A stretch of 64,000 nt of DNA from Candidatus Amesbacteria bacterium RIFOXYB1_FULL_44_23 (lineage in GTDB: Bacteria > Patescibacteriota > Microgenomatia > CAZETR01 > Amesbacteraceae), in the NCBI GenBank assembly GCA_001773775.1, contig MEXR01000032.1, positions 7,266-71,265 on the forward strand. Direction: 5' to 3'. How positions within the stretch are numbered: the stretch's first letter is position 1; each line of letters starts with the position of its first letter. Positions 12,082 through 33,054 of this stretch are shown here, one piece after another. The position numbers were made by a program, and so were the translations under genes. Below the pieces are notes generated by a model. That model was not told the origin of the DNA, searched no databases, and was given only the letters and a program-made list of their open reading frames with translations.

Positions 12082-13176
12082 ATGAAAATACCGGCGGATT
12101 TATCGAGAGCTTTGACGGGATTTAGGCGGGTTTTTACAGGCGTTAATAAACAAAGCAAAACCAGGATAAATGACAGGGAAAAGATAACGGTAATTTTGAC
12201 CGGGTTCGGGGGAAAGGATGTTTTGGGAAATTGGTCCGGGGAAACGGCCCCTTTCTTAAAGGAAATGAAAGATCTTTTGGACGTAAGAAATAAAGTGCGA
12301 TTGTGCAATTTGGCATATGAAGGAGAACTGTACGGAAGCCGGGTTTTGGTAGCGGCAACCGGAATGGCTAAAGTGAAGACCACGGCCTGTTTATCAGAGA
12401 TTCTGCATGTTTATGATAAGAAAATAAGAGAGGTTATTTTGGTCGGGATTGCCGGCATAACCCCAATGAAGGGCGGGATTTTAGATAGTTTGGGAAAGGT
12501 GCGAAAGTCGGAGCCGGCCATGTTGGGTGATGTTTGCGTCAGCTTTCTGGCAGTGGATTACGATTTGCAGCATTATGGTGCCGATTGCGGCAGATCGAGT
12601 TTGCCGGAACCTAAATTTTGGGATCAAAAAAGCACATTTCAGGCTAAGTTCATAAAGGGAGATAAGAAGTTGGCAGATGAGCTTCTTTCTGCCTGCAAAA
12701 AAGTGCGCTGGCCGGCTGTACCTAAGGGGGTGGAAAAAATTAACACCTTATATCACTCCGGAAGCCGATTTCCTAAAGTGTGGGAACCTTGGGAATGTCT
12801 GGAAGTGACCAGTGACTTATATTGGCACGATTTAAGATCTGATTGCAGAGCCCGGGAGCTGGCCGGAGGACTGTTGAGGAGGGAATACGGCAGGAAAATT
12901 TCCCCAGATTCGGTGCTGGTAGTTTCTTCCATGGAAGCGGTGGCCTGCGGGGCAGTTGTGGAATGGTGGAACAGGGATCACAAACGGGCAATTGGGTTTT
13001 CTTACGTCAGGGGGGCTAGTAACTTTAGTCACCCATATGTAGACACTGACGGAAAGCCGGTTTTAGGGGCCCTGGAGAGCCTGAAAATGTCGGCAAAATC
13101 GGGAGGGGCCTCGTATGCAATGCAGACTGAAGCGTTACCGGTATTAAAAATGCTTGAATTGAGATCATATGTTTAA
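12082..13176 (+). CDS. Nucleoside phosphorylase/NUP-like (PNP_UDP fold) protein
   Basis: TGMAKV, VGIAGITP, TSDLYW, SMEAVA, VRGASNF. Confidence 0.65.
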   Translation: MKIPADLSRALTGFRRVFTGVNKQSKTRINDREKITVILTGFGGKDVLGNWSGETAPFLKEMKDLLDVRNKVRLCNLAYEGELYGSRVLVAATGMAKVKTTACLSEILHVYDKKIREVILVGIAGITPMKGGILDSLGKVRKSEPAMLGDVCVSFLAVDYDLQHYGADCGRSSLPEPKFWDQKSTFQAKFIKGDKKLADELLSACKKVRWPAVPKGVEKINTLYHSGSRFPKVWEPWECLEVTSDLYWHDLRSDCRARELAGGLLRREYGRKISPDSVLVVSSMEAVACGAVVEWWNRDHKRAIGFSYVRGASNFSHPYVDTDGKPVLGALESLKMSAKSGGASYAMQTEALPVLKMLELRSYV

Positions 13177-20408: not shown

Positions 20409-20446
20409 TGGGTGGGTATGGGCGGAAATCCGTTCGAACCTGTTTA
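20409..20446 (+). repeat. Array repeat R1
   Basis: tgggtgggtatgggcggaaatccGTTCGAACCtgttta. Confidence 0.55.
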
Positions 20447-20555
20447 GCCATTAAGTTATTATTGGGTTATGTTCAAAATCGTGGCCTGCCCGGTTGATAA
20501 AAGAGAAGTGGGGGAGTTGGCTCGTGAGATCGGGGGCTTTTATATTTGAAAATGT

Positions 20556-20786
20556 ATGACTAAACGACAGGTTTGGCAAACGATAGCCTTGGATTTGAAG
20601 AGAGCGGCTAATTATTTGCATGCTAAGAGATACCGGCAGGCAGAATTTTATTTAGATGAGGCCAAACAACTGTACAAGACCGCTTCTTTTGACGACAAGA
20701 TGCGCTCTGTTGAGAAGTTTATAAGCTTTAGCGGTGATCCGGAAGGGATTTTGTTGGGGAGCAGTATTATTTCAGGGAGACTGTAA
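20556..20786 (+). CDS. Hypothetical protein (cassette 1)
   Basis: Helical 76-aa ORF, IALDLKRAANY. Confidence 0.65.
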   Translation: MTKRQVWQTIALDLKRAANYLHAKRYRQAEFYLDEAKQLYKTASFDDKMRSVEKFISFSGDPEGILLGSSIISGRL

Positions 20787-20790
20787 AACC

Positions 20791-20824
20791 CGGCTGGCCT
20801 GATGGAAAGTATTCTAGCCTGTTC
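20791..20824 (+). repeat. Array repeat R2 (degenerate)
   Basis: cggctggcctGATGGAAagtattctagcctgttc. Confidence 0.45.
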
Positions 20825-20875
20825 CTCTCAAATTTAGTATTTACTATCTTTGTAAAATATGTTAGAAGTTCTTAA

Positions 20876-21109
20876 ATGTCAGATGAACGTTTAGGTCCGG
20901 CAGAAACAAGGGTAGATATTAGAAGATATATCGAAGAACACCCCGAAGGTGTAAATATTTCTCCAACTGTTCTTGCGGCCATTGCTAGGCAGAGAAAATG
21001 GTCGGATCTTGTAGATCCTGTAAGAAGAATAACTTCAGGTCTAAAAACTTTAGGAGTTGTACGTATAGAGGGTTTAATTGCTAAACCCGTTCCTCGAAGG
21101 AAGCATTAA
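20876..21109 (+). CDS. Hypothetical protein, possibly winged helix (cassette 2)
   Basis: IRRYIEEHPEG...VRRITSGLKTLGVV. Confidence 0.55.
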   Translation: MSDERLGPAETRVDIRRYIEEHPEGVNISPTVLAAIARQRKWSDLVDPVRRITSGLKTLGVVRIEGLIAKPVPRRKH

Positions 21110-21115
21110 AATTTG

Positions 21116-21150
21116 TTCAGAGGGCTTTGATGGAAGACGTCTGCGGTAAA
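21116..21150 (+). repeat. Array repeat R3 (3' part diverged)
   Basis: ttcagagggctttGATGGAAGACgtctgcgg. Confidence 0.5.
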
Positions 21151-21264
21151 CCACTACCCCCTTTGATACAGAACGAAGCTGTTACGCACAAAATTTAACA
21201 TAACAGACTAGATAGAATGGCCTCACGCGGTTATAATCTCACTTAGTAAAACAACTAAATAGCC

Positions 21265-22074
21265 ATGAATATGCCTGATTTCGATGAGTCTCGAGTTATA
21301 TTTGAAAAGAGATGGCAGGAGTATGTTAATAATTTTCTTGCCTCACCATCTAATTCCAAGGTATTTAAAGCGTACGAGTCCGGGGGAATCTTATCTCCTG
21401 AAAATAGGAATGTGGTAGAGCATCAAATCATGGCAAGATTCGTAGTTGAGGTGTTGTGTGATTTGTGTGGTGTAGACGGAAATGAAAAGGAAGACGGCTT
21501 AACAGCAGCAAGTCTGCACGATTTCAATGTGCTCGAAGAAAAATTCGGCAGAAGAAACGGGAAATATAAACATTACCGGGATATAGAATCGCTGAAAGAA
21601 AAAGATCGTAATACACTCAGAGAGTTGGGGTTTTCAGAGGAAGCAATTAGTCTGACGGATGCTAACATAACGCACGAAGAGGGGGGTCCAAAATCACTAA
21701 CCGCGATGTTTTTGTTCTTGGCTGACGCCTGCATCTCCGGAACAAAAATCGTAGATATCAGAAAAAGATTTGCGGATACAAGGATGGGGTGGCGCAGCGA
21801 CAAGAAGCGAATAGATGATAAAACAGCGCAGGAGAATGCATATTATTATGATCATTTTTGGAAAGGGGCTCCGGGGCACGGAGACAGGCCGCATGATGAA
21901 GTACAACTGGAAACTGCCGCAAGAATATGTAGTGATTTGGTAGGAATATTAAGAGAGAAGCAGGCAGATACTAAAAATCCCAAATACGCACGCATATTTG
22001 GCCCAAATGGAGATTCAAACCTACTTCCAGAGTATATACGGGATAAAGTGAACGAAAAAGTTGCAAACGTCTAA
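21265..22074 (+). CDS. HD-superfamily phosphohydrolase (cassette 3)
   Basis: VVEH...AASLHDF...FLADA. Confidence 0.7.
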   Translation: MNMPDFDESRVIFEKRWQEYVNNFLASPSNSKVFKAYESGGILSPENRNVVEHQIMARFVVEVLCDLCGVDGNEKEDGLTAASLHDFNVLEEKFGRRNGKYKHYRDIESLKEKDRNTLRELGFSEEAISLTDANITHEEGGPKSLTAMFLFLADACISGTKIVDIRKRFADTRMGWRSDKKRIDDKTAQENAYYYDHFWKGAPGHGDRPHDEVQLETAARICSDLVGILREKQADTKNPKYARIFGPNGDSNLLPEYIRDKVNEKVANV

Positions 22075-22114
22075 GGGGAGATTTGTAATATTCATTGGGA
22101 TTAGTTCTCGATAT

Positions 22115-22150
22115 TTGCAGGGACTGGCGGACTGTCTGGGAACCTGGTTT
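22115..22150 (+). repeat. Array repeat R4
   Basis: ttGCAGGGACtGGcGGActgtctggGAACCTggttt; 13/15 nt identical to the tRNA-Trp 3'-end strand at 28769-28783. Confidence 0.7.
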
Positions 22151-22167
22151 TGGGTATAATCAGTCTT

Positions 22168-23220
22168 ATGGATGAAATTAAAGTAGCTTCACTAGAAGAT
22201 TTGGGTTGGGGTGGGTATTTTAAAAATGAACACTCTATAGCCAGAGTGGTTGCCGAATATAGAGAAGCGTATAGGGTCAGAAGCATAAATGGAGAATTTT
22301 TAGCAAAAATTACCGGTAAACAACTGTTTTTGGCGACCAAACGGGAAGATTATCCGGCGGTAGGTGATTTCGTGGTGATAGATGAAATGTCCGGGAAAAA
22401 AGCAGTAATTCGTGAGGTGTTGCCCAGAAAGACCTGGCTTAAGAAGAAGTACAGCGATAAAGAAGAAAACCAGCTGATAGCAACTAACATAGACGCGGCA
22501 TTTATAGTGGGATCTCCGGATAAGGATTACAGTTTGAATCGTTTTGAGAGATATTTAGTTATTGCTAAGGACGGGGGAATTAAGCCGGTCTTAATTATTA
22601 ACAAAACCGACTTACTTTCTGAGGCGGAATTGCGCGCCAAAATATCGGAGATTAAGGAAAGATTTGGGGAGGTTGATATTCTTCTGACTAGTACAGTGAC
22701 TGAGCTGGGATTAGGAGAGCTGGAAAAGTATATTCTAAGGGGTAAGACATATTGCTTTTTGGGTTCTTCCGGAGTAGGCAAATCGACACTTATAAATAAA
22801 TTACTGGGTAAAAATGAAATTAAAACGATGGAAATTAGTGAAACATCCGGCAGGGGAAAACACACCACCTCAACCAGGGAGATGTATTTTTTAAAAAACG
22901 GGGGAATAGTCATTGATAACCCAGGAACCAGGGAGGTGGGTACGGGAGATTCAGTTAGGGGTATGGAAAATGTGTTTGATGAAATAAGATTACTGTCTCA
23001 AAACTGCAGATTTTCTGATTGCACGCATACAAACGAACCTAATTGTGCGATTATCACAGCCGTGGAGTCTGGAAGTTTGGATAAAGATAAATATGCGAAT
23101 TTTCTAAAGTTACGAAAAGAATCGGAATTTTATAAAATGAGTGAGCTGGATAGAAGAGCTAAAGATCGGAAGTTTGGAAAATTTGTTAAGAAGGCAAAAA
23201 ATGAGCTTGAGATGTATTGA
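22168..23220 (+). CDS. rsgA: Ribosome small subunit-dependent GTPase A (cassette 4)
   Basis: PAVGDFV, NKTD, GSSGVGKSTL, GKHTT, DNPG, CRFSDCTHTNEPNC. Confidence 0.95.
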   Translation: MDEIKVASLEDLGWGGYFKNEHSIARVVAEYREAYRVRSINGEFLAKITGKQLFLATKREDYPAVGDFVVIDEMSGKKAVIREVLPRKTWLKKKYSDKEENQLIATNIDAAFIVGSPDKDYSLNRFERYLVIAKDGGIKPVLIINKTDLLSEAELRAKISEIKERFGEVDILLTSTVTELGLGELEKYILRGKTYCFLGSSGVGKSTLINKLLGKNEIKTMEISETSGRGKHTTSTREMYFLKNGGIVIDNPGTREVGTGDSVRGMENVFDEIRLLSQNCRFSDCTHTNEPNCAIITAVESGSLDKDKYANFLKLRKESEFYKMSELDRRAKDRKFGKFVKKAKNELEMY

Positions 23221-23240
23221 ATTTTTTACTTAAAGCTATT

Positions 23241-23300
23241 TTGCAGGTTTGGACGCCATAGCCCTGAGCGGAGTCGAAGGGGAAGATACTCGAATTTTGT
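23241..23300 (+). repeat. Array repeat R5 interrupted by a REP-like element
   Basis: ttgcagg...[gccctgagcggagtcgaaggg]GAAGAtactCGAAttt. Confidence 0.5.
23261..23281. repeat. REP-like short hairpin GCCCTGAGCGGAGTCGAAGGG
   Basis: Resembles, from memory, the widespread CCCTTCGACTxCGCTCAGGG extragenic repeat. Confidence 0.5.
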
Positions 23301-23936
23301 ATGGGCAACTTGCCTCTTTTGGAACTAAGCAATAAAATCCGGCAAATGGCTCGTGAACGCGGGTTTGAATGTCTGTTTAGCAGTAATCCAAAGGTTTATT
23401 TTATCGAGCAAGTTATTGAACAGCTCGATGTACTCGAGGCTCTCTTTTTGTGGGAACAGGGATTGGAACATATCTCTGGCTTAGTGACTGGATGTTTCGA
23501 TATACTACACCCTGATCAAGTTGAGTTTTTACAAGCAGGAAAAAGAAAGGTTCAGACGTTAATTGTGGGGGTTGATAGGGATGAAACGGTGAGACTAAAA
23601 GGTCCAGGAAGACCAATTTTTAATCTTAGACAAAGGTGCGAAATGCTGGCGGCTCTTGATTGTGTAGACTTAGTTTTTCCAATTCCCTTTGCTTTGGGAA
23701 GGTATGAGGAGTCACCCGAAAACGCTACCTTGTTCGAAGCCTTAACTGATAGATTATTCAACTCTACTTTGCCGAGGCAAGGTATACATTGTCTAATAAC
23801 AAATGAAGCTGCAGATCCGTTTTGGCGGGAAAAGAAAGAGCGGGCTGAAAAACTGGGAGTTGGCTATATTGGTTTGAATATGGAGAGATCTACTAGCTCG
23901 AGTCAGGTGGCAACTAAAATTCAAACAGGGGGTTAG
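23301..23936 (+). CDS. Cytidylyltransferase-family (RfaE domain II-like) protein with altered HxGH motif (cassette 5)
   Basis: GCFDILHPDQ, LIVGVDRD, KGPGRPI, R.EMLAALDCVD, C-terminal STSS. Confidence 0.8.
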   Translation: MGNLPLLELSNKIRQMARERGFECLFSSNPKVYFIEQVIEQLDVLEALFLWEQGLEHISGLVTGCFDILHPDQVEFLQAGKRKVQTLIVGVDRDETVRLKGPGRPIFNLRQRCEMLAALDCVDLVFPIPFALGRYEESPENATLFEALTDRLFNSTLPRQGIHCLITNEAADPFWREKKERAEKLGVGYIGLNMERSTSSSQVATKIQTGG

Positions 23937-23949
23937 GCATTCTTTATGG

Positions 23950-23983
23950 TTGCAGCCCTGGATGGAAGACATCCGAACCTATT
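23950..23983 (+). repeat. Array repeat R6
   Basis: ttgcaGCCCTGGATGGAAGACATcCGAACctatt. Confidence 0.75.
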
Positions 23984-24008
23984 ACTCTCAAAACCGATAA
24001 TAGAGTAT

Positions 24009-24698
24009 CTATTTTAATATTTCTCTTACAGTAGCCTGGACAAGGATTTCCATTGTATCGATAATTTCAGAGTTCTGTATATGGGGGGTGATTAATTGTA
24101 AATCTGTGCACGCAAGCAGAATTGTTTTTGGACCCTGGTCTAGTAGTCCTTTGGTTATTTTTAACAATTTTTCCCTGTCTTCACCATCCTGTCTACTGTG
24201 AACCAGGTGGTTGATGATTTCGCCCATTTGGTTCTGATCCTCCTCAACTGGACTTTTTACTTTTATACCATTTGAGGTAAGAACCTCTTCATATAACCTT
24301 TTTCTGATGGTGGAGGAGGTGGCTAAAAGACCAACTTCGGTGACTTTGTTACTATTGAGGCGACTTAATGTTTCATCCACTATGCTCAAAACAGGGACTT
24401 TCACTGATTCTCGGATTTGGTTAATAAAAATATGAACTGAGTTACATGGGATGACGATAAAATCTGCTCCGCCCTTCTCCAGTCTTTTAGCGGCATCTAA
24501 CAGATAAGGCAGATATTTTTCTTCTCCCTGAGAATTCTTGATGAATTCCTCTTCTATCTGATAGGGGAGGGGGACGTTCCAAATCAGCATTGGCGGACGG
24601 TTTATCCGATCCTTTTCAAAACAGGAGAAAATTACCTCCAGATAAAATTTGGAAGTTGTTTCCGGACCCAGTCCGCCAATTATGCCTGCAGTTTTCAT
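24009..24698 (-). CDS. Aspartate/glutamate racemase-family protein (cassette 6, inverted)
   Basis: GIIGGLGPETT, IPCNSVH, LACTDL (two catalytic Cys). Confidence 0.92.
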   Translation of the reverse strand: MKTAGIIGGLGPETTSKFYLEVIFSCFEKDRINRPPMLIWNVPLPYQIEEEFIKNSQGEEKYLPYLLDAAKRLEKGGADFIVIPCNSVHIFINQIRESVKVPVLSIVDETLSRLNSNKVTEVGLLATSSTIRKRLYEEVLTSNGIKVKSPVEEDQNQMGEIINHLVHSRQDGEDREKLLKITKGLLDQGPKTILLACTDLQLITPHIQNSEIIDTMEILVQATVREILK

Positions 24699-24780
24699 TC
24701 TCGGACTTAATTATATAGCAGGTTCGATTCCAATTAGCCGTTGATATAGTTTGATATGTTTTTTAGCTTCAAATTGAGTT

Positions 24781-24813
24781 AGCTGCCCTGGATGGAAGAC
24801 ATTCGAACTTTTT
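24781..24813 (+). repeat. Array repeat R7
   Basis: agctGCCCTGGATGGAAGACATtCGAACttttt; 18 nt identical to R6. Confidence 0.75.
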
Positions 24814-24864
24814 ACGTTCAGTTATCTTGTTAGTTGGAATAAACAGACTTATACTTTTTCCGTA

Positions 24865-25230
24865 ATGATAATAAATCGTAATAATTCGCGTTTTTGGGAG
24901 GCTTTGGAAGATATATTGAATAATTCTTCAGTAGTAATAGACCGGCCAGGGGGCAGTGCTCATCCAAGATTTCCGAAGTTTATTTATCCTCTGGATTATG
25001 GTTTCCTCGAAGGGACTTCTTCTATGGATGGTGGGGGAATTGACGTGTGGAAGGGGACCGGTACTAACGGTTTTGATGCGATACTTTGTGTTGTTGACAC
25101 AATCAAAAAAGATTCAGAAATAAAAATATTACTTAACTGCACCCCAGAAGAAAAAAGAAAGGTGCTGGAGTGTCAGAATACAAAAAAGATGAAGGCTATG
25201 ATGATAAATCGCGACGGGACACTTTCGTGA
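24865..25230 (+). CDS. Short inorganic pyrophosphatase-like protein (cassette 7)
   Basis: IDRPGGSAHP...YPLDYGFLEGTSSMDGGGIDVW. Confidence 0.75.
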   Translation: MIINRNNSRFWEALEDILNNSSVVIDRPGGSAHPRFPKFIYPLDYGFLEGTSSMDGGGIDVWKGTGTNGFDAILCVVDTIKKDSEIKILLNCTPEEKRKVLECQNTKKMKAMMINRDGTLS

Positions 25231-25284
25231 AAAGCTAGACGTCGTCTGGTGAAGCTAAACGAAAGATTGTTACAAAGCTCTGTT

Positions 25285-25322
25285 GTGGCAGGACTAGTGG
25301 ACTATGTTGGAACCTGGTTTAG
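25285..25322 (+). repeat. Array repeat R8
   Basis: gtggcaggactagtggactatgtTGGAACCTGGTTTAG. Confidence 0.7.
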
Positions 25323-25449
25323 GGAAAATAGGTTTGGTTTTGCTGTGTAAATGGTGGGGGGCGGGTAAACCCGTTAGCTTTATTGTCGTAAAATTACTGA
25401 GGTATTGGAAAGACAGCCTTTTTGGGTTAATATCGCCCCAGGAACGAGT

Positions 25450-25986
25450 ATGAGTGACGATATTAAATGGGTGGTAGATAATGCAGTGAAGTTATCTATT
25501 TTGGCGATAGCCTTATCAGTGGCATATTACTTTGTATTTTTTTTGCCAAATAAACAGAACCAGGAATTGGAATTAAAAAGGCAACAGTATCAGGACCAGA
25601 TAGTTGCCCAGCAAAAGGAAGACGAACGGGAACAACAAAAGATTTTAGATGTACAGAAACAGGCTGCAGAGAATAGGTCATTATTGGATAAGTGTTTGGA
25701 AAACGCTGAAGATTCGTATCACCTGAATTGGAGAAATAGTTGTAGGACAAGAGGATTAATGCCAAGTGGGTGTGAGGAGGAGTCAATTAACCTGGAGTTT
25801 TCTGATTATCAGAAACAACATAATTTGCCAACTTCTACCATTGAGGGATGGGATGATTATTGGAAAGTTTACAGTGCAAAAAAGGATAAATGTACCTGCA
25901 GCTTGCCTACATATAATGCAGACGACATAACTGAGACTGAAAAAAACTCAAAGGACGAATGCTTTAAAAGATATCCACAGAATTAG
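25450..25986 (+). CDS. Membrane-anchored Cys-containing hypothetical protein (cassette 8)
   Basis: TM (SVAYYFVFFLP), coiled coil, six Cys. Confidence 0.75.
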   Translation: MSDDIKWVVDNAVKLSILAIALSVAYYFVFFLPNKQNQELELKRQQYQDQIVAQQKEDEREQQKILDVQKQAAENRSLLDKCLENAEDSYHLNWRNSCRTRGLMPSGCEEESINLEFSDYQKQHNLPTSTIEGWDDYWKVYSAKKDKCTCSLPTYNADDITETEKNSKDECFKRYPQN

Positions 25987-25996
25987 GGGTATATTA

Positions 25997-26027
25997 CGGT
26001 TGGTGTTGTCGCTGGAACCTGGTTTAG
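25997..26027 (+). repeat. Array repeat R9
   Basis: cggttggtgttgtcgcTGGAACCTGGTTTAG; 15 nt identical to R8. Confidence 0.6.
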
Positions 26028-26121
26028 CCTGAATTGGTGGAGAGAAAGGGGGATTAGCCTTTGCTGGGTGGTTTAGGAGGAGTGGATGTTTGTACTGCGC
26101 AGGACTAAGATTACCCAGGAC

Positions 26122-26436
26122 ATGGACGAGGAAAATAATGCTCTTTCTTATTTATTTTGGGGTGGGGTAATAGTCTTCATTATTTGGGCATTCATTTTTA
26201 ACAATAAGCCCGATACTGAATACATTAGGGAAGAATTCGACAATGGTAAGGCTATCGAAATGGAGGTTGACGACTCGATCACTAGAGACAATTGGGAGTG
26301 TACAGGTGATTGCTCTGGTCATGATGCTGGATATGAATGGGCAGAAGAGAAGGGGATAACTGATCCAAGTGACTGTGGTGGCAAATCAGAGTCTTTTATA
26401 GAGGGGTGTGAGGCTTATGCGAACGAAAATTATTAA
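26122..26436 (+). CDS. Membrane-anchored small Cys-rich protein (cassette 9)
   Basis: TM plus CTGDCSGHDAGYEWAEEKGI...CGGKSESFIEGC. Confidence 0.75.
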   Translation: MDEENNALSYLFWGGVIVFIIWAFIFNNKPDTEYIREEFDNGKAIEMEVDDSITRDNWECTGDCSGHDAGYEWAEEKGITDPSDCGGKSESFIEGCEAYANENY

Positions 26437-26448
26437 GGTAGGTGGGCA

Positions 26449-26483
26449 TTGATGGGGTGGGGGACTACGTGGGAACCTTTTTT
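26449..26483 (+). repeat. Array repeat R10
   Basis: ttgatggggtggGGGACtacgtggGAACCtttttt. Confidence 0.6.
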
Positions 26484-26537
26484 GTTTGTATTGATAGAAG
26501 GTATGGGGAAGTAAACCTTGTCAGGAATTTTTGTGCC

Positions 26538-27032
26538 CTAGGGTCCTTTTTTTAGGTTAGATCGGAAATTTATCCAACTTATAAAAATTTTTACTCTGTC
26601 AATGAGGCTCAGATTTGAAAGTAAGGTGTCTGCTCTGTCTCCAATGTGTTCAATGTAGTCCTTAAAATAATTTATTTCAGATTGCTTTGGTTCAAAGATT
26701 GATTCCCCGCCGGTGAAGCTGGGAATTTTTTTCCAATCCTGTACAAATGCTCTAATCATGGTTGAGAGTGATGGGTTGTACATTTTGACATTTCTAGCGA
26801 TGTGTATCAGGCGTTGTGATATGTTTTCAGAGAATTTGAGCGATGGTAAACATTGTTCTTCGAATTCGGCCAACCGATCTTGAATTTTATTTCTAAGCTT
26901 GCGTTTTTCGGTCTCATCTTCACCCAAGGATTTAAGCTTATTAGACAAGTTGTAGTTGTAAAATATTCCGATCAAACTGATTACTGCGGGTACTGAGGCT
27001 AAGACCAAAGCAAATTTTTCTGAAAGTGTCAT
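26538..27032 (-). CDS. Hypothetical protein with N-terminal TM
   Basis: ORF 9 nt downstream of the 27042-27968 gene. Confidence 0.7.
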   Translation of the reverse strand: MTLSEKFALVLASVPAVISLIGIFYNYNLSNKLKSLGEDETEKRKLRNKIQDRLAEFEEQCLPSLKFSENISQRLIHIARNVKMYNPSLSTMIRAFVQDWKKIPSFTGGESIFEPKQSEINYFKDYIEHIGDRADTLLSNLSLIDRVKIFISWINFRSNLKKGP

Positions 27033-27041
27033 ATATTACGT

Positions 27042-27968
27042 TTATGCAAAAAGTTTTGTTATTTCCGAATCCCATGATTCAGTATGGATAACTCTTTTGA
27101 TCGATAAATTGCCTTGTATTATCTGTGCTTTGGTGAGTTTGGAAAGGGTTTCCCAGTTGTTCCCAAATACGTAAGTGGCGTTGCCATACTTGATGCACTC
27201 GAGTAGGTAAAAGCCTCTTTGCCCAAAGCCAAAAACTACATACCCCTGAAAACCGCCAAAACCAATGGCGTGTAGGGTGGGTTTGTAACTTCGAATTTTG
27301 TCTACCCTATGTGTAGCCCATGGCTGGTTACCTTTGGGTAGCTGATTTATGACCGTTTTTAATCTATCGGACACCCTTTCCCAGGGGTATTCACCTGGTG
27401 GGAGTATTTCCCAGTTGAGTCTTACTTCTTTAGGTGAAAAGTAACCTTCGAGATTATTGGAGACAATGTCGAATTCACCAAAAATTTCAAGCATCAAGTT
27501 TGCGAGGTGGAGAACTTCCTTTTCGTTTTCTGGTTTGCTTTGAACTACCCGGCTGGAAAACATGAGTTCGCCTGTTGGAGTTTGAAGTATTTCGAGTTCT
27601 TCTGAGGGTGGTAGCACTTTTTCTCTGGGATATCTTTGGTAAGGAACATCAACAAATTTGCTCATTGGAACTGTGTTGTAACGGCCGTCCCATTGTTTCC
27701 AATGCCACTTGACTGTGCGGTAAGCAGTTTCCATTGGTAGATCAGTTCTTTTTATTTCCTTGCCCAGGGCATTGAATCTGGTAGTTGGGCCAAATGTGGG
27801 TGGGGGGAGTATTTTGTGACCTACTGAAATGGGTAAGTTGAAACCAATTCTAATGGCTATCTGGTCAGTGGTGGAGTTGGTGGTGGCAATGAGTCGAAAT
27901 TGTTCACCTGGTTTTAAGAATCCAAAATAAGACTTGTAATCGTGGATTGACGTCTTTTTAATCTTCAT
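27042..27968 (-). CDS. Conserved-looking hypothetical protein
   Basis: LNWEILPPGEYPW, GFQGYVVFGF, GNATYVF...W.TLSKLTK, RVIH...W. Confidence 0.8.
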   Translation of the reverse strand: MKIKKTSIHDYKSYFGFLKPGEQFRLIATTNSTTDQIAIRIGFNLPISVGHKILPPPTFGPTTRFNALGKEIKRTDLPMETAYRTVKWHWKQWDGRYNTVPMSKFVDVPYQRYPREKVLPPSEELEILQTPTGELMFSSRVVQSKPENEKEVLHLANLMLEIFGEFDIVSNNLEGYFSPKEVRLNWEILPPGEYPWERVSDRLKTVINQLPKGNQPWATHRVDKIRSYKPTLHAIGFGGFQGYVVFGFGQRGFYLLECIKYGNATYVFGNNWETLSKLTKAQIIQGNLSIKRVIHTESWDSEITKLFA

Positions 27969-28051
27969 GAGGCTGATTGTACCACAATTTCTGGTAAATG
28001 CAAGATTGTTCTTGTATAGTGTGTTATGATTTAATACGATTGAAAGGCATT

Positions 28052-28669
28052 ATGGTAGGATTACATCCAAGGCAAATAAAAATTCTGGAGCTGCTGAAAG
28101 GTGGTGATGGCCAGGGTTTAAGCGTGAGGGAGATTCAGAACTTACTTGGGATTTCCTCACCAAGTGTTGTTCAGCACCACATTGTTCAATTGGAGCGGAA
28201 GGGTTATCTTCGCAGAAATCCTAATAACCCTCAGGATTTTCAGGTTTTGGCTGATAGCCCTGATAGGGAAGTGACCTATTTGAACGTTTATGGGTTGGCT
28301 CAGTGTGGTCCAGGAGGGAGAATTCTTGATGGCAATCCCATTGAGAGAGTTCCCATCAGCTCAAAATTGCTTGGATTCTCCTCCTCGGAAGCATTTATGG
28401 TTAAGGCGAAAGGAGATTCGATGGTGCCACTTATTGCTGAGAACGACTATGTGGTTGCTAGGGTAACGAATGACAAACCACCTGGGGGTGAAATTGTTGT
28501 TGCTGTCAATGATGGTAATGCGACAATAAAAAAAATAAATTATTCAGGAGGTGAGGTTGTCTTGTCGTCTATTAACAGGGATTATTCGCCAATGATTGTA
28601 TCGCCAGATTTCAGGGTGGAGGGTGTAGTTAGAGGTGTATATAAATATGCCAATCCCACGGTAAAATAA
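28052..28669 (+). CDS. LexA/CI-like repressor (HTH + S24 peptidase)
   Basis: LSVREIQ..LGISSPSVVQHH..QLERKGYL; GDSM (Ser); ATIKK (Lys); Cys-Gly at the cleavage position. Confidence 0.88.
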   Translation: MVGLHPRQIKILELLKGGDGQGLSVREIQNLLGISSPSVVQHHIVQLERKGYLRRNPNNPQDFQVLADSPDREVTYLNVYGLAQCGPGGRILDGNPIERVPISSKLLGFSSSEAFMVKAKGDSMVPLIAENDYVVARVTNDKPPGGEIVVAVNDGNATIKKINYSGGEVVLSSINRDYSPMIVSPDFRVEGVVRGVYKYANPTVK

Positions 28670-28769
28670 TTTATGGCGAAAATATCATGGTCGGAGGCAT
28701 TGGCTGATTATTTGGGGGGATGAGACGTCGAGTTACCAATCCTTGGTGGGGAAATTTGGGGTATCGAAG

Positions 28770-28840
28770 CAGGGACGGGAGGAATCGAACCTCCACTAGA
28801 GCTTTTGGAGAGCCCAGGTCTACCATTAACCTACGTCCCT
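28770..28840 (-). tRNA. tRNA-Trp (CCA)
   Basis: AGGGACGTAGGTTAATGGTAGACCTGGGCTCTCCAAAAGCTC...GGTTCGATTCCTCCCGTCCCTG cloverleaf. Confidence 0.95.
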
Positions 28841-28881
28841 AGACAGTTTAATTTTACAGGAGTTGCTGAAGAAAGAGAAGC

Positions 28882-32274: not shown

Positions 32275-33054
32275 TCATTCCCAATCTTCGATTAGGGGTC
32301 GATATTCTCTTTGAATTTCTAAATATGATTTTTTGAGAATGACTTCAAGTTTTATCTGGGGGAATAGATGTCTAAATAAAGCATCTCTTTCTTGTGAATA
32401 TAAATTCATGTAGTTTTTAACTTCGATATAAGTTTTAACTTTAGGCAAATAGAAGTCTGGACGGTAGGTGTGGATTCCTAGATTAAAACGTCTGGGGGCA
32501 TATTGCCATTTAATCCCGACTAAATTGAACGTTCTGGCAAGATTGGCTTCCCATGTACTATAAAAACAAATTTTGGGATCAATATCGATTCTTACTCCAG
32601 ATTTGCCTTTTGAGGCCTTAGGCGACGTGGTTTGATGGCCAATCGTGGTTATGGCACAAAGAGAGCTACAGTATTTTCGTGACTTTGTTAAGTACCTGGC
32701 GACTTTAAATATTTGTTTACAATCAGGGTTTTGGCAGGTCAGGGTGACAAGTGGCAATTTTACTTGTTTAGGAGGTCTGATCCCGGCAAGTTTGAGACAT
32801 TTCGAAATTTTATTTCTGATTATTTCTGGCATGTGTTTTCCCGTGTTGTGAAACTGAGCCGAACATCTTCTTGAACAGAATATTTGCCTAGCGTACGGCT
32901 TTGTCTCAAAAATACTTGAACATTTTGGGTTGGGACAAACCTTGGTAATAGTGGGGCTAGTTAACTTTGTATATTTTCCAGCTAGCCAATTGGCTTTAGT
33001 AATGCGGGATTGTTTGGATCGATACGTAGGGGTTTGGTAGAACTGGGGTGCCAC
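32275..33054 (-). CDS. Zn-finger + PD-(D/E)XK nuclease (homing-endonuclease-like)
   Basis: CPNPKC...FCSRRC, CQNPDC...YCSSLC, STWEANLAR, YRPDFYLP...IEVKNY. Confidence 0.8.
   Translation of the reverse strand: MAPQFYQTPTYRSKQSRITKANWLAGKYTKLTSPTITKVCPNPKCSSIFETKPYARQIFCSRRCSAQFHNTGKHMPEIIRNKISKCLKLAGIRPPKQVKLPLVTLTCQNPDCKQIFKVARYLTKSRKYCSSLCAITTIGHQTTSPKASKGKSGVRIDIDPKICFYSTWEANLARTFNLVGIKWQYAPRRFNLGIHTYRPDFYLPKVKTYIEVKNYMNLYSQERDALFRHLFPQIKLEVILKKSYLEIQREYRPLIEDWE

What the first reader, a model, noticed from the sequence alone, without database searches (positions are those of the whole stretch)
22115..28792. The array repeat looks like a hybrid of the tRNA-Trp acceptor/T-arm and a recombinase C-terminal coding tail
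Seen: R4 (22117-22131, GCAGGGACTGGCGGA) matches the tRNA-Trp 3'-end strand (28769-28783, GCAGGGACGGGAGGA) at 13/15 nt, and both continue to GAACCT. Read in one frame, the copies give related peptides: QGLADCLGTWF, QPWMEDIRTYY, LPWMEDIRTFY, AGLVDYVGTWF, MGWGDYVGTFF, AGLMESILACS. That codon-like conservation suggests they were once the last codons of a gene. Inference, from my recollection that tRNA-targeting serine recombinases in CPR often end in a '(D/E)x(V/I)RTxF' tail: attP overlaps the recombinase 3' end, integration swaps that tail for antisense tRNA sequence, and the orphaned tails pile up as scars. The different 5' halves (GCAGGGAC vs GCnGCCCT) may mark different element families or original target tRNAs.
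Basis: partly seen in the sequence, partly recalled or inferred. Interest (0 to 1): 0.75.

Follow-up and report, generated by a model that had tools for sequence, protein, structure and literature searches.

The report
Recombinase-tail scars stacked behind tRNA-Trp
The short repeats behind this small groundwater bacterium's tRNA-Trp gene code for the same last residues that natural serine recombinases of its relatives carry, so they are likely scars of mobile elements that inserted one after another, cut off their own enzyme's tail and later lost the enzyme, a layout already described in Dehalococcoides and seen here in miniature.

Summary
Large serine recombinases (LSRs) in relatives run into antisense tRNA-Trp. 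Natural homologs end instead in the repeat peptide, e.g. P0122 WQAWMEDIRTWYAQI. Tail forms: 11 of 240 and 7 of 147 hits.

Two corrections. Only the first four bases (GCAG) track the tRNA: identity is 0.76-0.90 at bases 1-4 and 0.30-0.60 at 5-12 over 50 junction/tRNA pairs. The GAAC motif lies 5 bp further out than in the tRNA, the attP-versus-attB shift of serine integrases (PMC3783163). So each repeat is mostly an attP arm. The two repeat types trace to two LSR clades using the same tRNA, not to two tRNAs.

About nine junctions (20413-26492) bound 0.4-2.3 kb units without a recombinase. The last unit ends in a gene cut at its own CAG codon, which suggests precise truncation.

Precedents: Dehalococcoides dsiB islands, streptococcal rumA ICEs. 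This scan reported the same system on other DNA. Recombination, the exact crossover and any function of the tail are untested.

The parts
20413..20455 (+). Degenerate junction, core not GCAG; probably the outermost scar
   Evidence: Profile score 22.8, but this site was in the seed set of that profile; 15.3 before it was added; peptide test not passed
20556..20786 (+). 76-aa cargo gene, also in the tRNA-Trp regions of G014 and G015
   Evidence: 63% and 51% identity
20790..20836 (+). Decayed type-B junction (reads ...MESILACSSQI*)
   Evidence: DNA match to G017 and G012 junctions; peptide test not passed
20876..22074 (+). Two cargo genes of unknown family (77 and 269 aa)
   Evidence: no family match
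22117..22160 (+). Type-A junction: GCAG core plus arm coding QGLADCLGTWF
   Evidence: best six-frame peptide score fell in another frame
22168..23220 (+). RsgA-type GTPase cargo gene; the same gene follows a type-A junction at tRNA-Trp in G016
   Evidence: PF03193 4e-48; 72% protein and 79% DNA identity
23243..23311 (+). Degenerate type-B-like junction split by a palindromic insert at 23262-23281
   Evidence: Read by eye; profile score 14.2; a similar insert sits in a G166 junction
23301..23936 (+). Cytidylyltransferase-like cargo gene
   Evidence: PF01467 1.4e-9
23952..23996 (+). Type-B junction: GCAG core plus arm coding QPWMEDIRTYYSQN
   Evidence: peptide score 60 against natural LSR tails, null 99th percentile 26
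24009..24698 (-). Asp/Glu racemase cargo gene
   Evidence: PF01177 1.9e-38
24721..24781 (+). Conserved ~60-nt left arm; begins with an inverted T-loop-like half-site and recurs before unrelated junctions in other genomes
   Evidence: six loci that built the model, plus one further locus (L114) at E 3e-8
24782..24826 (+). Type-B junction (core GCTG) coding LPWMEDIRTFY
   Evidence: peptide score 53; other contigs change flank exactly at 24785
24865..25230 (+). Pyrophosphatase-like cargo gene (weak match); related copies in other organisms of the same habitat
   Evidence: PF00719 E 0.0034, below cut-off
25288..25330 (+). Type-A junction, one base short after the core, coding (AG)LVDYVGTWF
   Evidence: peptide score 35
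25450..25986 (+). 178-aa cargo gene of unknown family
26013..26038 (+). 3' half of a type-A arm (GTWFSLNW)
   Evidence: family D13; the same continuation GTYFSLN in a G017 junction
26086..26436 (+). 116-aa cargo gene of unknown family
26450..26492 (+). Type-A junction with decayed core, coding DYVGTFF
   Evidence: peptide score 28
26538..27968 (-). Two cargo genes of unknown family (164 and 308 aa)
27998..28669 (+). LexA/CI-like repressor gene in the tRNA-proximal unit
   Evidence: PF00717 and PF01726; phrog_4 1e-24
28673..28772 (+). Frameshifted 5' remnant (33 codons) of a ~223-aa gene, ending at its own CAG codon, which is the att core
   Evidence: homolog in G383 61% identical over 33 residues, E 1e-7
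28769..28840 (-). tRNA-Trp(cca), the integration target
   Evidence: LSRs read into it in G017, G166, G227, G029, G399

Best explanation
The repeats code for the C-terminal tail that natural large serine recombinases of related bacteria carry, and they are likely attL-type scars left by elements that integrated one after another at the last four bases of tRNA-Trp and then likely lost their recombinase end by precise deletion. Shown: LSR genes at tRNA-Trp switch to antisense tRNA right after W-Q; homologous LSRs exist that continue into the repeat peptide; a whole 9.7-kb element in G017 has the tail at its left end and the LSR at its right; the shared core is 4 nt; the GAAC motif is offset by 5 bp. 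Inferred: attP lies inside the last ~15 codons of the LSR gene; the crossover is within GCAG (AG fits the A118-type geometry best); integration strands the tail at the far end; a later insertion at the same site pushes older units outward and can rejoin an older LSR to a new tail; units lose their LSR end by recombination between the tRNA-side site and an internal GCAG look-alike. Not tested: whether the tail changes enzyme activity.
For: LSR into tRNA-Trp in 5 genomes. P0122, 79% identical to the G017 enzyme, and P0152 end in the type-B peptide. G017 left junction QAWMESIRTWYAQI* and right junction NGNWQGRKESDL. The junction nearest a second-clade Trp LSR (about 30% identical to P0122) is type A in G227 and type-A-like in G399. 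Tail forms in 11 of 240 hits against 3 of 1227 body windows (expression chosen after seeing these proteins), and 7 of 147 against 1 of 765 in a later set with the expression fixed. In 50 junction/tRNA pairs (28 Trp, 13 Gln, 5 Ser, 4 His), base 3 matches the cognate tRNA in 0.90 against 0.05 for non-cognate; these bases were outside the search profile; the shift scan peaks at 5 (0.62, others 0.39 or less), as in PMC3783163. A tail-form LSR sits at a tandem junction inside an 86-kb contig of G163. An LSR 3' remnant joined to the type-B tail lies in the G108 tRNA-Trp array. The window's last unit ends in a gene cut at the core. 0 of 50 left arms hold an LSR coding remnant.
Against: No free circle or phage with an intact attP was found. 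No Trp-type LSR is in this 92%-complete assembly. Frame statistics on the repeats alone do not single out the tail frame: BLOSUM 1.81 against 1.57 and 1.57 forward but 1.77 and 1.74 on the reverse strand; synonymous share 0.25 against 0.19 and 0.28. Only 4 of 7 window sites pass the peptide test in the expected frame. The deletion step rests on one truncated gene and one homolog. G029 has a Trp LSR with no junction scored upstream. Shared right ends and the conserved 60-nt arm and a 28-nt duplicated arm in G010 are not explained by one-off deletions. Classical LSRs do not integrate into attR, so stacking needs a relaxed left half-site, which is assumed.
Confidence: 0.85

Rival explanations
1. 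Integron-like cassette system: the recombinase-free units are themselves mobile, excised and reinserted in trans by a visiting Trp-specific LSR, with an optimised left arm that keeps the site receptive.
For: Units are gene-sized (38 of 50 under 3 kb, median 1.4 kb). Arm plus gene travel together (RsgA unit in G016; pyrophosphatase-like unit in other organisms). A conserved 60-nt left arm precedes different junctions in 7 loci. A left-arm motif occurs in 12 of 71 arms against 0.6 in shuffles (motif chosen by eye). Contigs in some runs join across units.
Against: No resident recombinase in the array. Several sites are decayed, frameshifted or interrupted. The last unit ends inside a broken gene. 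The pyrophosphatase-like unit has a different right spacer in another organism. The joints have 30-47 letters on the short side with unknown filling, and may come from relatives or from the repeats.
Confidence: 0.2
2. Same origin as attL scars, but recombinase ends were lost by ordinary random deletion and IS activity, with selection keeping whole genes.
For: In G108 an IS-like element abuts a 16-codon LSR remnant. Broken LSRs occur in G108 and G302.
Against: 0 of 50 left arms keep LSR coding sequence, and the truncated gene ends exactly at the core.
Confidence: 0.2
3. The repeats are duplicated tRNA-Trp 3' halves made by a tyrosine integrase, with the peptide likeness a by-product.
For: 13 of 15 match at 22117. 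tRNA fragments are the usual signature of tyrosine-integrase islands (PMC4383910).
Against: Identity to the tRNA falls after base 4 and the T-loop motif is 5 bp out of register. Both tyrosine recombinases of the genome end in ordinary stops without the motif. Serine recombinases carry the peptide.
Confidence: 0.03

Closest known systems
Dehalococcoides ssrA genomic islands with the serine recombinase DsiB (McMurdie et al. 2011, PMC3146451; passages read)
   Same: Tandem islands behind a stable-RNA gene; the recombinase gene overlaps the att site at its 3' end; 15 islands lack the integration module; the authors propose full function only on the circle or next to an island that supplies the 3' fragment.
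   Different: There the target is tmRNA with a 20-bp repeat, crossover in the T-loop, and a six-gene module with DsiA. Here it is the tRNA 3' end with a 4-nt core, a conserved tail peptide, 0.4-2.3 kb units, a DUF5659 module, and two enzyme clades on one site.
Streptococcal ICEs with serine integrases targeting rumA (PMC4701971; passages read)
   Same: attR lies inside the serine integrase gene, so integration exchanges the C-terminus.
   Different: Protein-gene target, large conjugative elements; the passages seen describe no stack of miniature units.
Myxophage Mx8 integrase (via PMC6070905 and PMC4701971; passages read)
   Same: attP inside int; integration gives a new C-terminus with changed activity.
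   Different: Tyrosine recombinase; 112 residues are replaced by 13, against about 14 residues swapped here; effect shown there, untested here.
A118/LI serine integrase att architecture (Rutherford et al. 2013, PMC3783163; passages read)
   Same: Zinc-domain motif 5 bp further out in attP than in attB, with similar inner half-sites; the family profile matches the A118 C-terminal domains at 1e-18.
   Different: Here the left half-site is barely conserved, and the attP arm doubles as coding sequence beyond the region that aligns to A118.
Tycheposon islands of Prochlorococcus (bioRxiv 10.1101/2020.12.28.424599; passages read)
   Same: Repeated integration at one tRNA pushes older elements outward and leaves scars and decayed elements.
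   Different: 910 of 937 elements use tyrosine recombinases and leave partial tRNAs of about 40 nt; no coding tail in the passages seen.

Membership tests
Large serine recombinase att sites | Cognate enzyme with resolvase, recombinase and zinc-ribbon domains | tested here: met
   PF00239, PF07508 and PF13408 on Trp-adjacent enzymes; none in the window itself
Large serine recombinase att sites | Very short shared core and 5-bp shift of the outer motif between attP and attB | tested here: met
   Identity high at bases 1-4 only; shift peak at 5
Large serine recombinase att sites | Quasi-symmetric left and right half-sites | tested here: inconclusive
   Left arms weakly conserved; a motif in 12 of 71 arms
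Large serine recombinase att sites | attP x attB recombination and directionality factor shown | not testable with these tools
   Needs a plasmid assay; DUF5659 is only a positional candidate
DsiB-type ssrA islands | Recombinase gene overlapping the att site at its 3' end | tested here: met
DsiB-type ssrA islands | Tandem islands, some without integration module | tested here: met
DsiB-type ssrA islands | Target ssrA with a 20-bp direct repeat | tested here: not met
   Target is tRNA-Trp, core 4 nt
DsiB-type ssrA islands | Six-gene module with DsiA, ParB, Mom | not tested
   No direct search; genes upstream of the Trp LSRs are 60-190 aa and include DUF5659
Integrons | Resident IntI tyrosine integrase beside attI | tested here: not met
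   Only two PF00589 genes in the assembly, on other contigs
Integrons | Hairpin attC sites recombined as single strands | not tested
   Repeats were not folded; they match an LSR coding tail instead
Integrons | Cassettes excise and reinsert singly | tested here: inconclusive
   Ambiguous joints in contigs
Tyrosine-integrase tRNA islands (Islander type) | Displaced tRNA fragment in register with the gene | tested here: not met
   Identity 0.30-0.60 at bases 5-12 and motif out of register

The most novel reading that the evidence does not exclude
Patescibacteria run a serine-recombinase counterpart of the integron at tRNA 3' ends. Several enzyme clades share a 4-nt core, the swapped C-terminal helix acts as an integration-coupled switch that stacking can reset, and the enzyme itself trims elements into single-gene units that stay mobile in trans through conserved left arms.
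Probability: 0.2. Interest if true: 0.75.

Novelty: new variant of a known kind. Interest (0 to 1): 0.45.

Why it matters
It explains where a streamlined Patescibacteria genome keeps accessory genes (RsgA-type GTPase, racemase, repressor) and gives a 40-nt signature for finding such islands, which tools that look for tRNA fragments would likely miss. It makes a 2011 hypothesis (recombinase complete only on the circle or next to a newer island) directly testable, because natural tail-form and tRNA-form enzymes 79% identical are in hand. The enzymes target a conserved tRNA end, so they may be of use as integration tools. The layout itself is known and this scan has met it in many genomes, which limits surprise.

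Tried and rejected
Viral contigs: no relative of the C3 enzyme and no type-B repeat, so no free attP was seen.

Frame statistics on the repeats alone were not decisive.

My first idea, that type-B repeats came from tRNA-Gln elements, was dropped: they sit at tRNA-Trp and match a Trp-clade enzyme.

A tRNA-Trp pattern search was mis-spaced and found it in 1 of 27 genomes; not used.

AlphaFold on P0122: mean pLDDT 90.5, tail predicted as a helix at 502-508 with block pLDDT 61 and 48; few of the 96 rows carry the tail, so it says nothing on packing or function.

DUF5659 not found in this assembly, and the control was also blank.

Sequencing runs: no RNA holder listed. Contig joints 25292-28869 and 23955-24785 are hints only.

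Most cargo genes match no Pfam, PHROG or NCBIfam family.

PMC12884075 passages held nothing on this question. Literature searches listed no paper on this system in Patescibacteria; the library lacks most subscription papers and no supplements were read.
Full report
Setting. The window is G000:C32:7266-71265 of a 1.11-Mb, 92% complete assembly. Protein hits are labelled Gottesmanbacteria, Dojkabacteria, Woykebacteria and Patescibacteria where named, and 3 of 7 records with the type-B repeat are titled Ca. Amesbacteria. I infer a Patescibacteria (Microgenomates-type) host. Runs holding the stretch are groundwater or soil metagenomes.

Observation. tRNA-Trp(cca) lies at c28769-28840. The 13 of 15 match at 22117 is real, but four other copies match at 7-9 of 15. 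Consensus searches find 2 and 3 copies against 0 in 100 shuffles. Five of six peptides read as written; MGWGDYVGTFF mixes two frames, and AGLMESILACS is at about 20790. With degenerate sites I count about nine junctions from 20413 to 26492, bounding units of 378-2319 nt. None of the array's genes is a recombinase.

The tail is real. The genome has three LSRs. One stops at the end of tRNA-Glu, one reads through antisense tRNA-Gln, and one reads into a tRNA-like sequence that ARAGORN did not call. In G017, same family, an LSR reads into tRNA-Trp as NGNWQGRKESDL, and 9.7 kb to the left is a junction reading QAWMESIRTWYAQI*. Among its homologs, P0122 (79% identical) ends NGNWQAWMEDIRTWYAQI and P0152 ends NWQPYMESIRTFYAQN: the window's type-B peptide. 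Of 240 hits from two searches, 149 end in tRNA-derived text, 11 in a tail and 80 otherwise or truncated; 3 of 1227 body windows match (expression set after seeing them). In 147 new proteins from the 50%-cluster search, with the expression fixed, the counts are 78, 7 and 62, with 1 of 765 body windows. PF07508 matched 105 of 151 genomes of the class (this tally includes unpublished G085, on which nothing else rests), and not all of those enzymes lie at tRNAs.

What the repeat is made of. I paired 50 junctions (profile score 16 or more) with the next antisense tRNA: 28 Trp, 13 Gln, 5 Ser, 4 His. Seven loci were left out as duplicates, which also removed most of the G031 array; two probable in-gene false hits were kept; kin are not independent. 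Identity is 0.88, 0.76, 0.90, 0.84 at bases 1-4, then 0.30-0.60 at bases 5-12. Base 3 matches non-cognate tRNAs in only 0.05. Bases 1-10 were not in the profile. Bases 20-30 match the tRNA best when shifted by 5 (0.62; other shifts 0.39 or less). Rutherford et al. describe this 5-bp shift between attP and attB, with similar inner half-sites (PMC3783163, passages), and the family profile matches the A118 integrase C-terminal domains. I infer that each repeat is a left arm, a GCAG core and an attP arm that also codes the tail. AG as the crossover is inferred from geometry only.

Two types, one tRNA. Both types occur at tRNA-Trp across the family (39 junctions after dropping 3 in-gene hits by eye and 1 duplicate). 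The type-B pattern matched 17 of 401 class genomes, with 0 reversed-pattern controls; where a tRNA was in reach in the fetched loci it was Trp, except one copy among His-type junctions in G302. A second Trp-adjacent LSR clade, about 30% identical to P0122, has a type-A junction nearest to it in G227 and a type-A-like one in G399; none was scored in G029. So the halves mark element families.

How the stack forms. P0011, a tail-form LSR, lies inside an 86-kb contig of G163 at a junction, with a near-identical arm 8.4 kb upstream; no tRNA was in the fetched stretch. G108 has the last 16 codons of an LSR joined to the type-B tail 19 kb from tRNA-Trp, behind an IS-like element. These fit insertion into an occupied site that rejoins an old enzyme to a new tail, as McMurdie et al. 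proposed for dsiB (PMC3146451, passages). For loss of the enzyme: the window's last unit ends in a frameshifted remnant, 61% identical over 33 residues to the start of a 223-aa protein in G383; the homolog reads GVSLQAVKK, the window GVSKQ and then tRNA. The cut falls on the gene's own CAG. No LSR coding remnant was found in 50 left arms (best E 0.26). I infer recombinase-guided deletion at GCAG look-alikes; this rests on one gene.

Against, and open. No free attP in viral contigs. Frame statistics on the repeats were weak, and 4 of 7 window sites pass the peptide test. Some features fit reuse of units better than one-off decay: an RsgA unit with the same arm type in G016, shared genes in G014 and G015, a 28-nt arm duplicated in G010, a 60-nt left arm before different junctions in seven loci, and a left-arm motif in 12 of 71 arms against 0.6 in shuffles (chosen by eye). 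In eight runs laid, four of them flagged as possible sources of this DNA, other contigs change flank at 23951 and 24785; contigs join 25292 to 28869 in three runs and 23955 to 24785 in two, with unknown filling and short sides. These mark real breakpoints among relatives but do not show excision. The structure model gives the tail a low-confidence helix.

Known and new. att sites inside the integrase gene are described for DsiB, for streptococcal rumA ICE serine integrases and for Mx8 (passages). Stacking at tRNAs is described for tycheposons (passages). Islander (2014) stated that serine integrases were not known to target tRNA genes (passages). My searches listed no paper on this Patescibacteria form; supplements were not read and subscription papers are mostly missing. 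Earlier notes of this scan report the same system in other genomes, including at tRNA-Trp; they are not independent support. Verdict: new variant of a known kind, interest 0.45.

Noticed in passing
window 24721-24781; also L045, L066, L037, L049, L056, L114: A ~60-nt conserved left arm that starts with an inverted T-loop-like half-site and holds a TTGATA direct repeat. Its middle part also follows the real tRNA-Trp in L060. Role unexplained.
   Followed up: partly
G000:C3:20741-29716 (L170) and G000:C33:2668-5748 (L169): Two more arrays in this assembly: four junctions before an intact LSR at tRNA-Gln, and five junctions on C33 (mostly Trp-type cores, one Gln-type arm) with no tRNA on the contig.
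   Followed up: partly
window 23262-23281; L066 3050-3083; L069 about 1290-1340: Short palindromic REP-like inserts sit inside junctions, at about the same place in three genomes.
   Followed up: no
whole assembly: All 36 tRNA genes that could be registered encode C74; 24 encode only that C, 1 CC and 11 the full CCA (3 of 39 not registered).
   Followed up: no
L039:15290-16389; L171:16564-17363; L173:16928-17648; L172; L066: Three or four small genes precede the Trp LSRs of both clades; one is DUF5659 in the three elements scanned. Candidate directionality factor by position only.
   Followed up: partly
L037:11344-11374 and 12447-12477: Identical 28-nt left arms (half of a terminator-like hairpin) at both ends of a 1.1-kb stretch in G010.
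   Followed up: no
L066:12540-12690: The G166 LSR reads through a partial tRNA-Trp copy and then into a whole one.
   Followed up: no
G000:C60:24470-24546: The third LSR reads into a tRNA-like end that ARAGORN does not call, perhaps an intron-bearing tRNA.
   Followed up: no
window 32275-33054: Zinc-finger nuclease-like gene inside the Thr-Tyr-Thr tRNA cluster; already noted by this scan.
   Followed up: no
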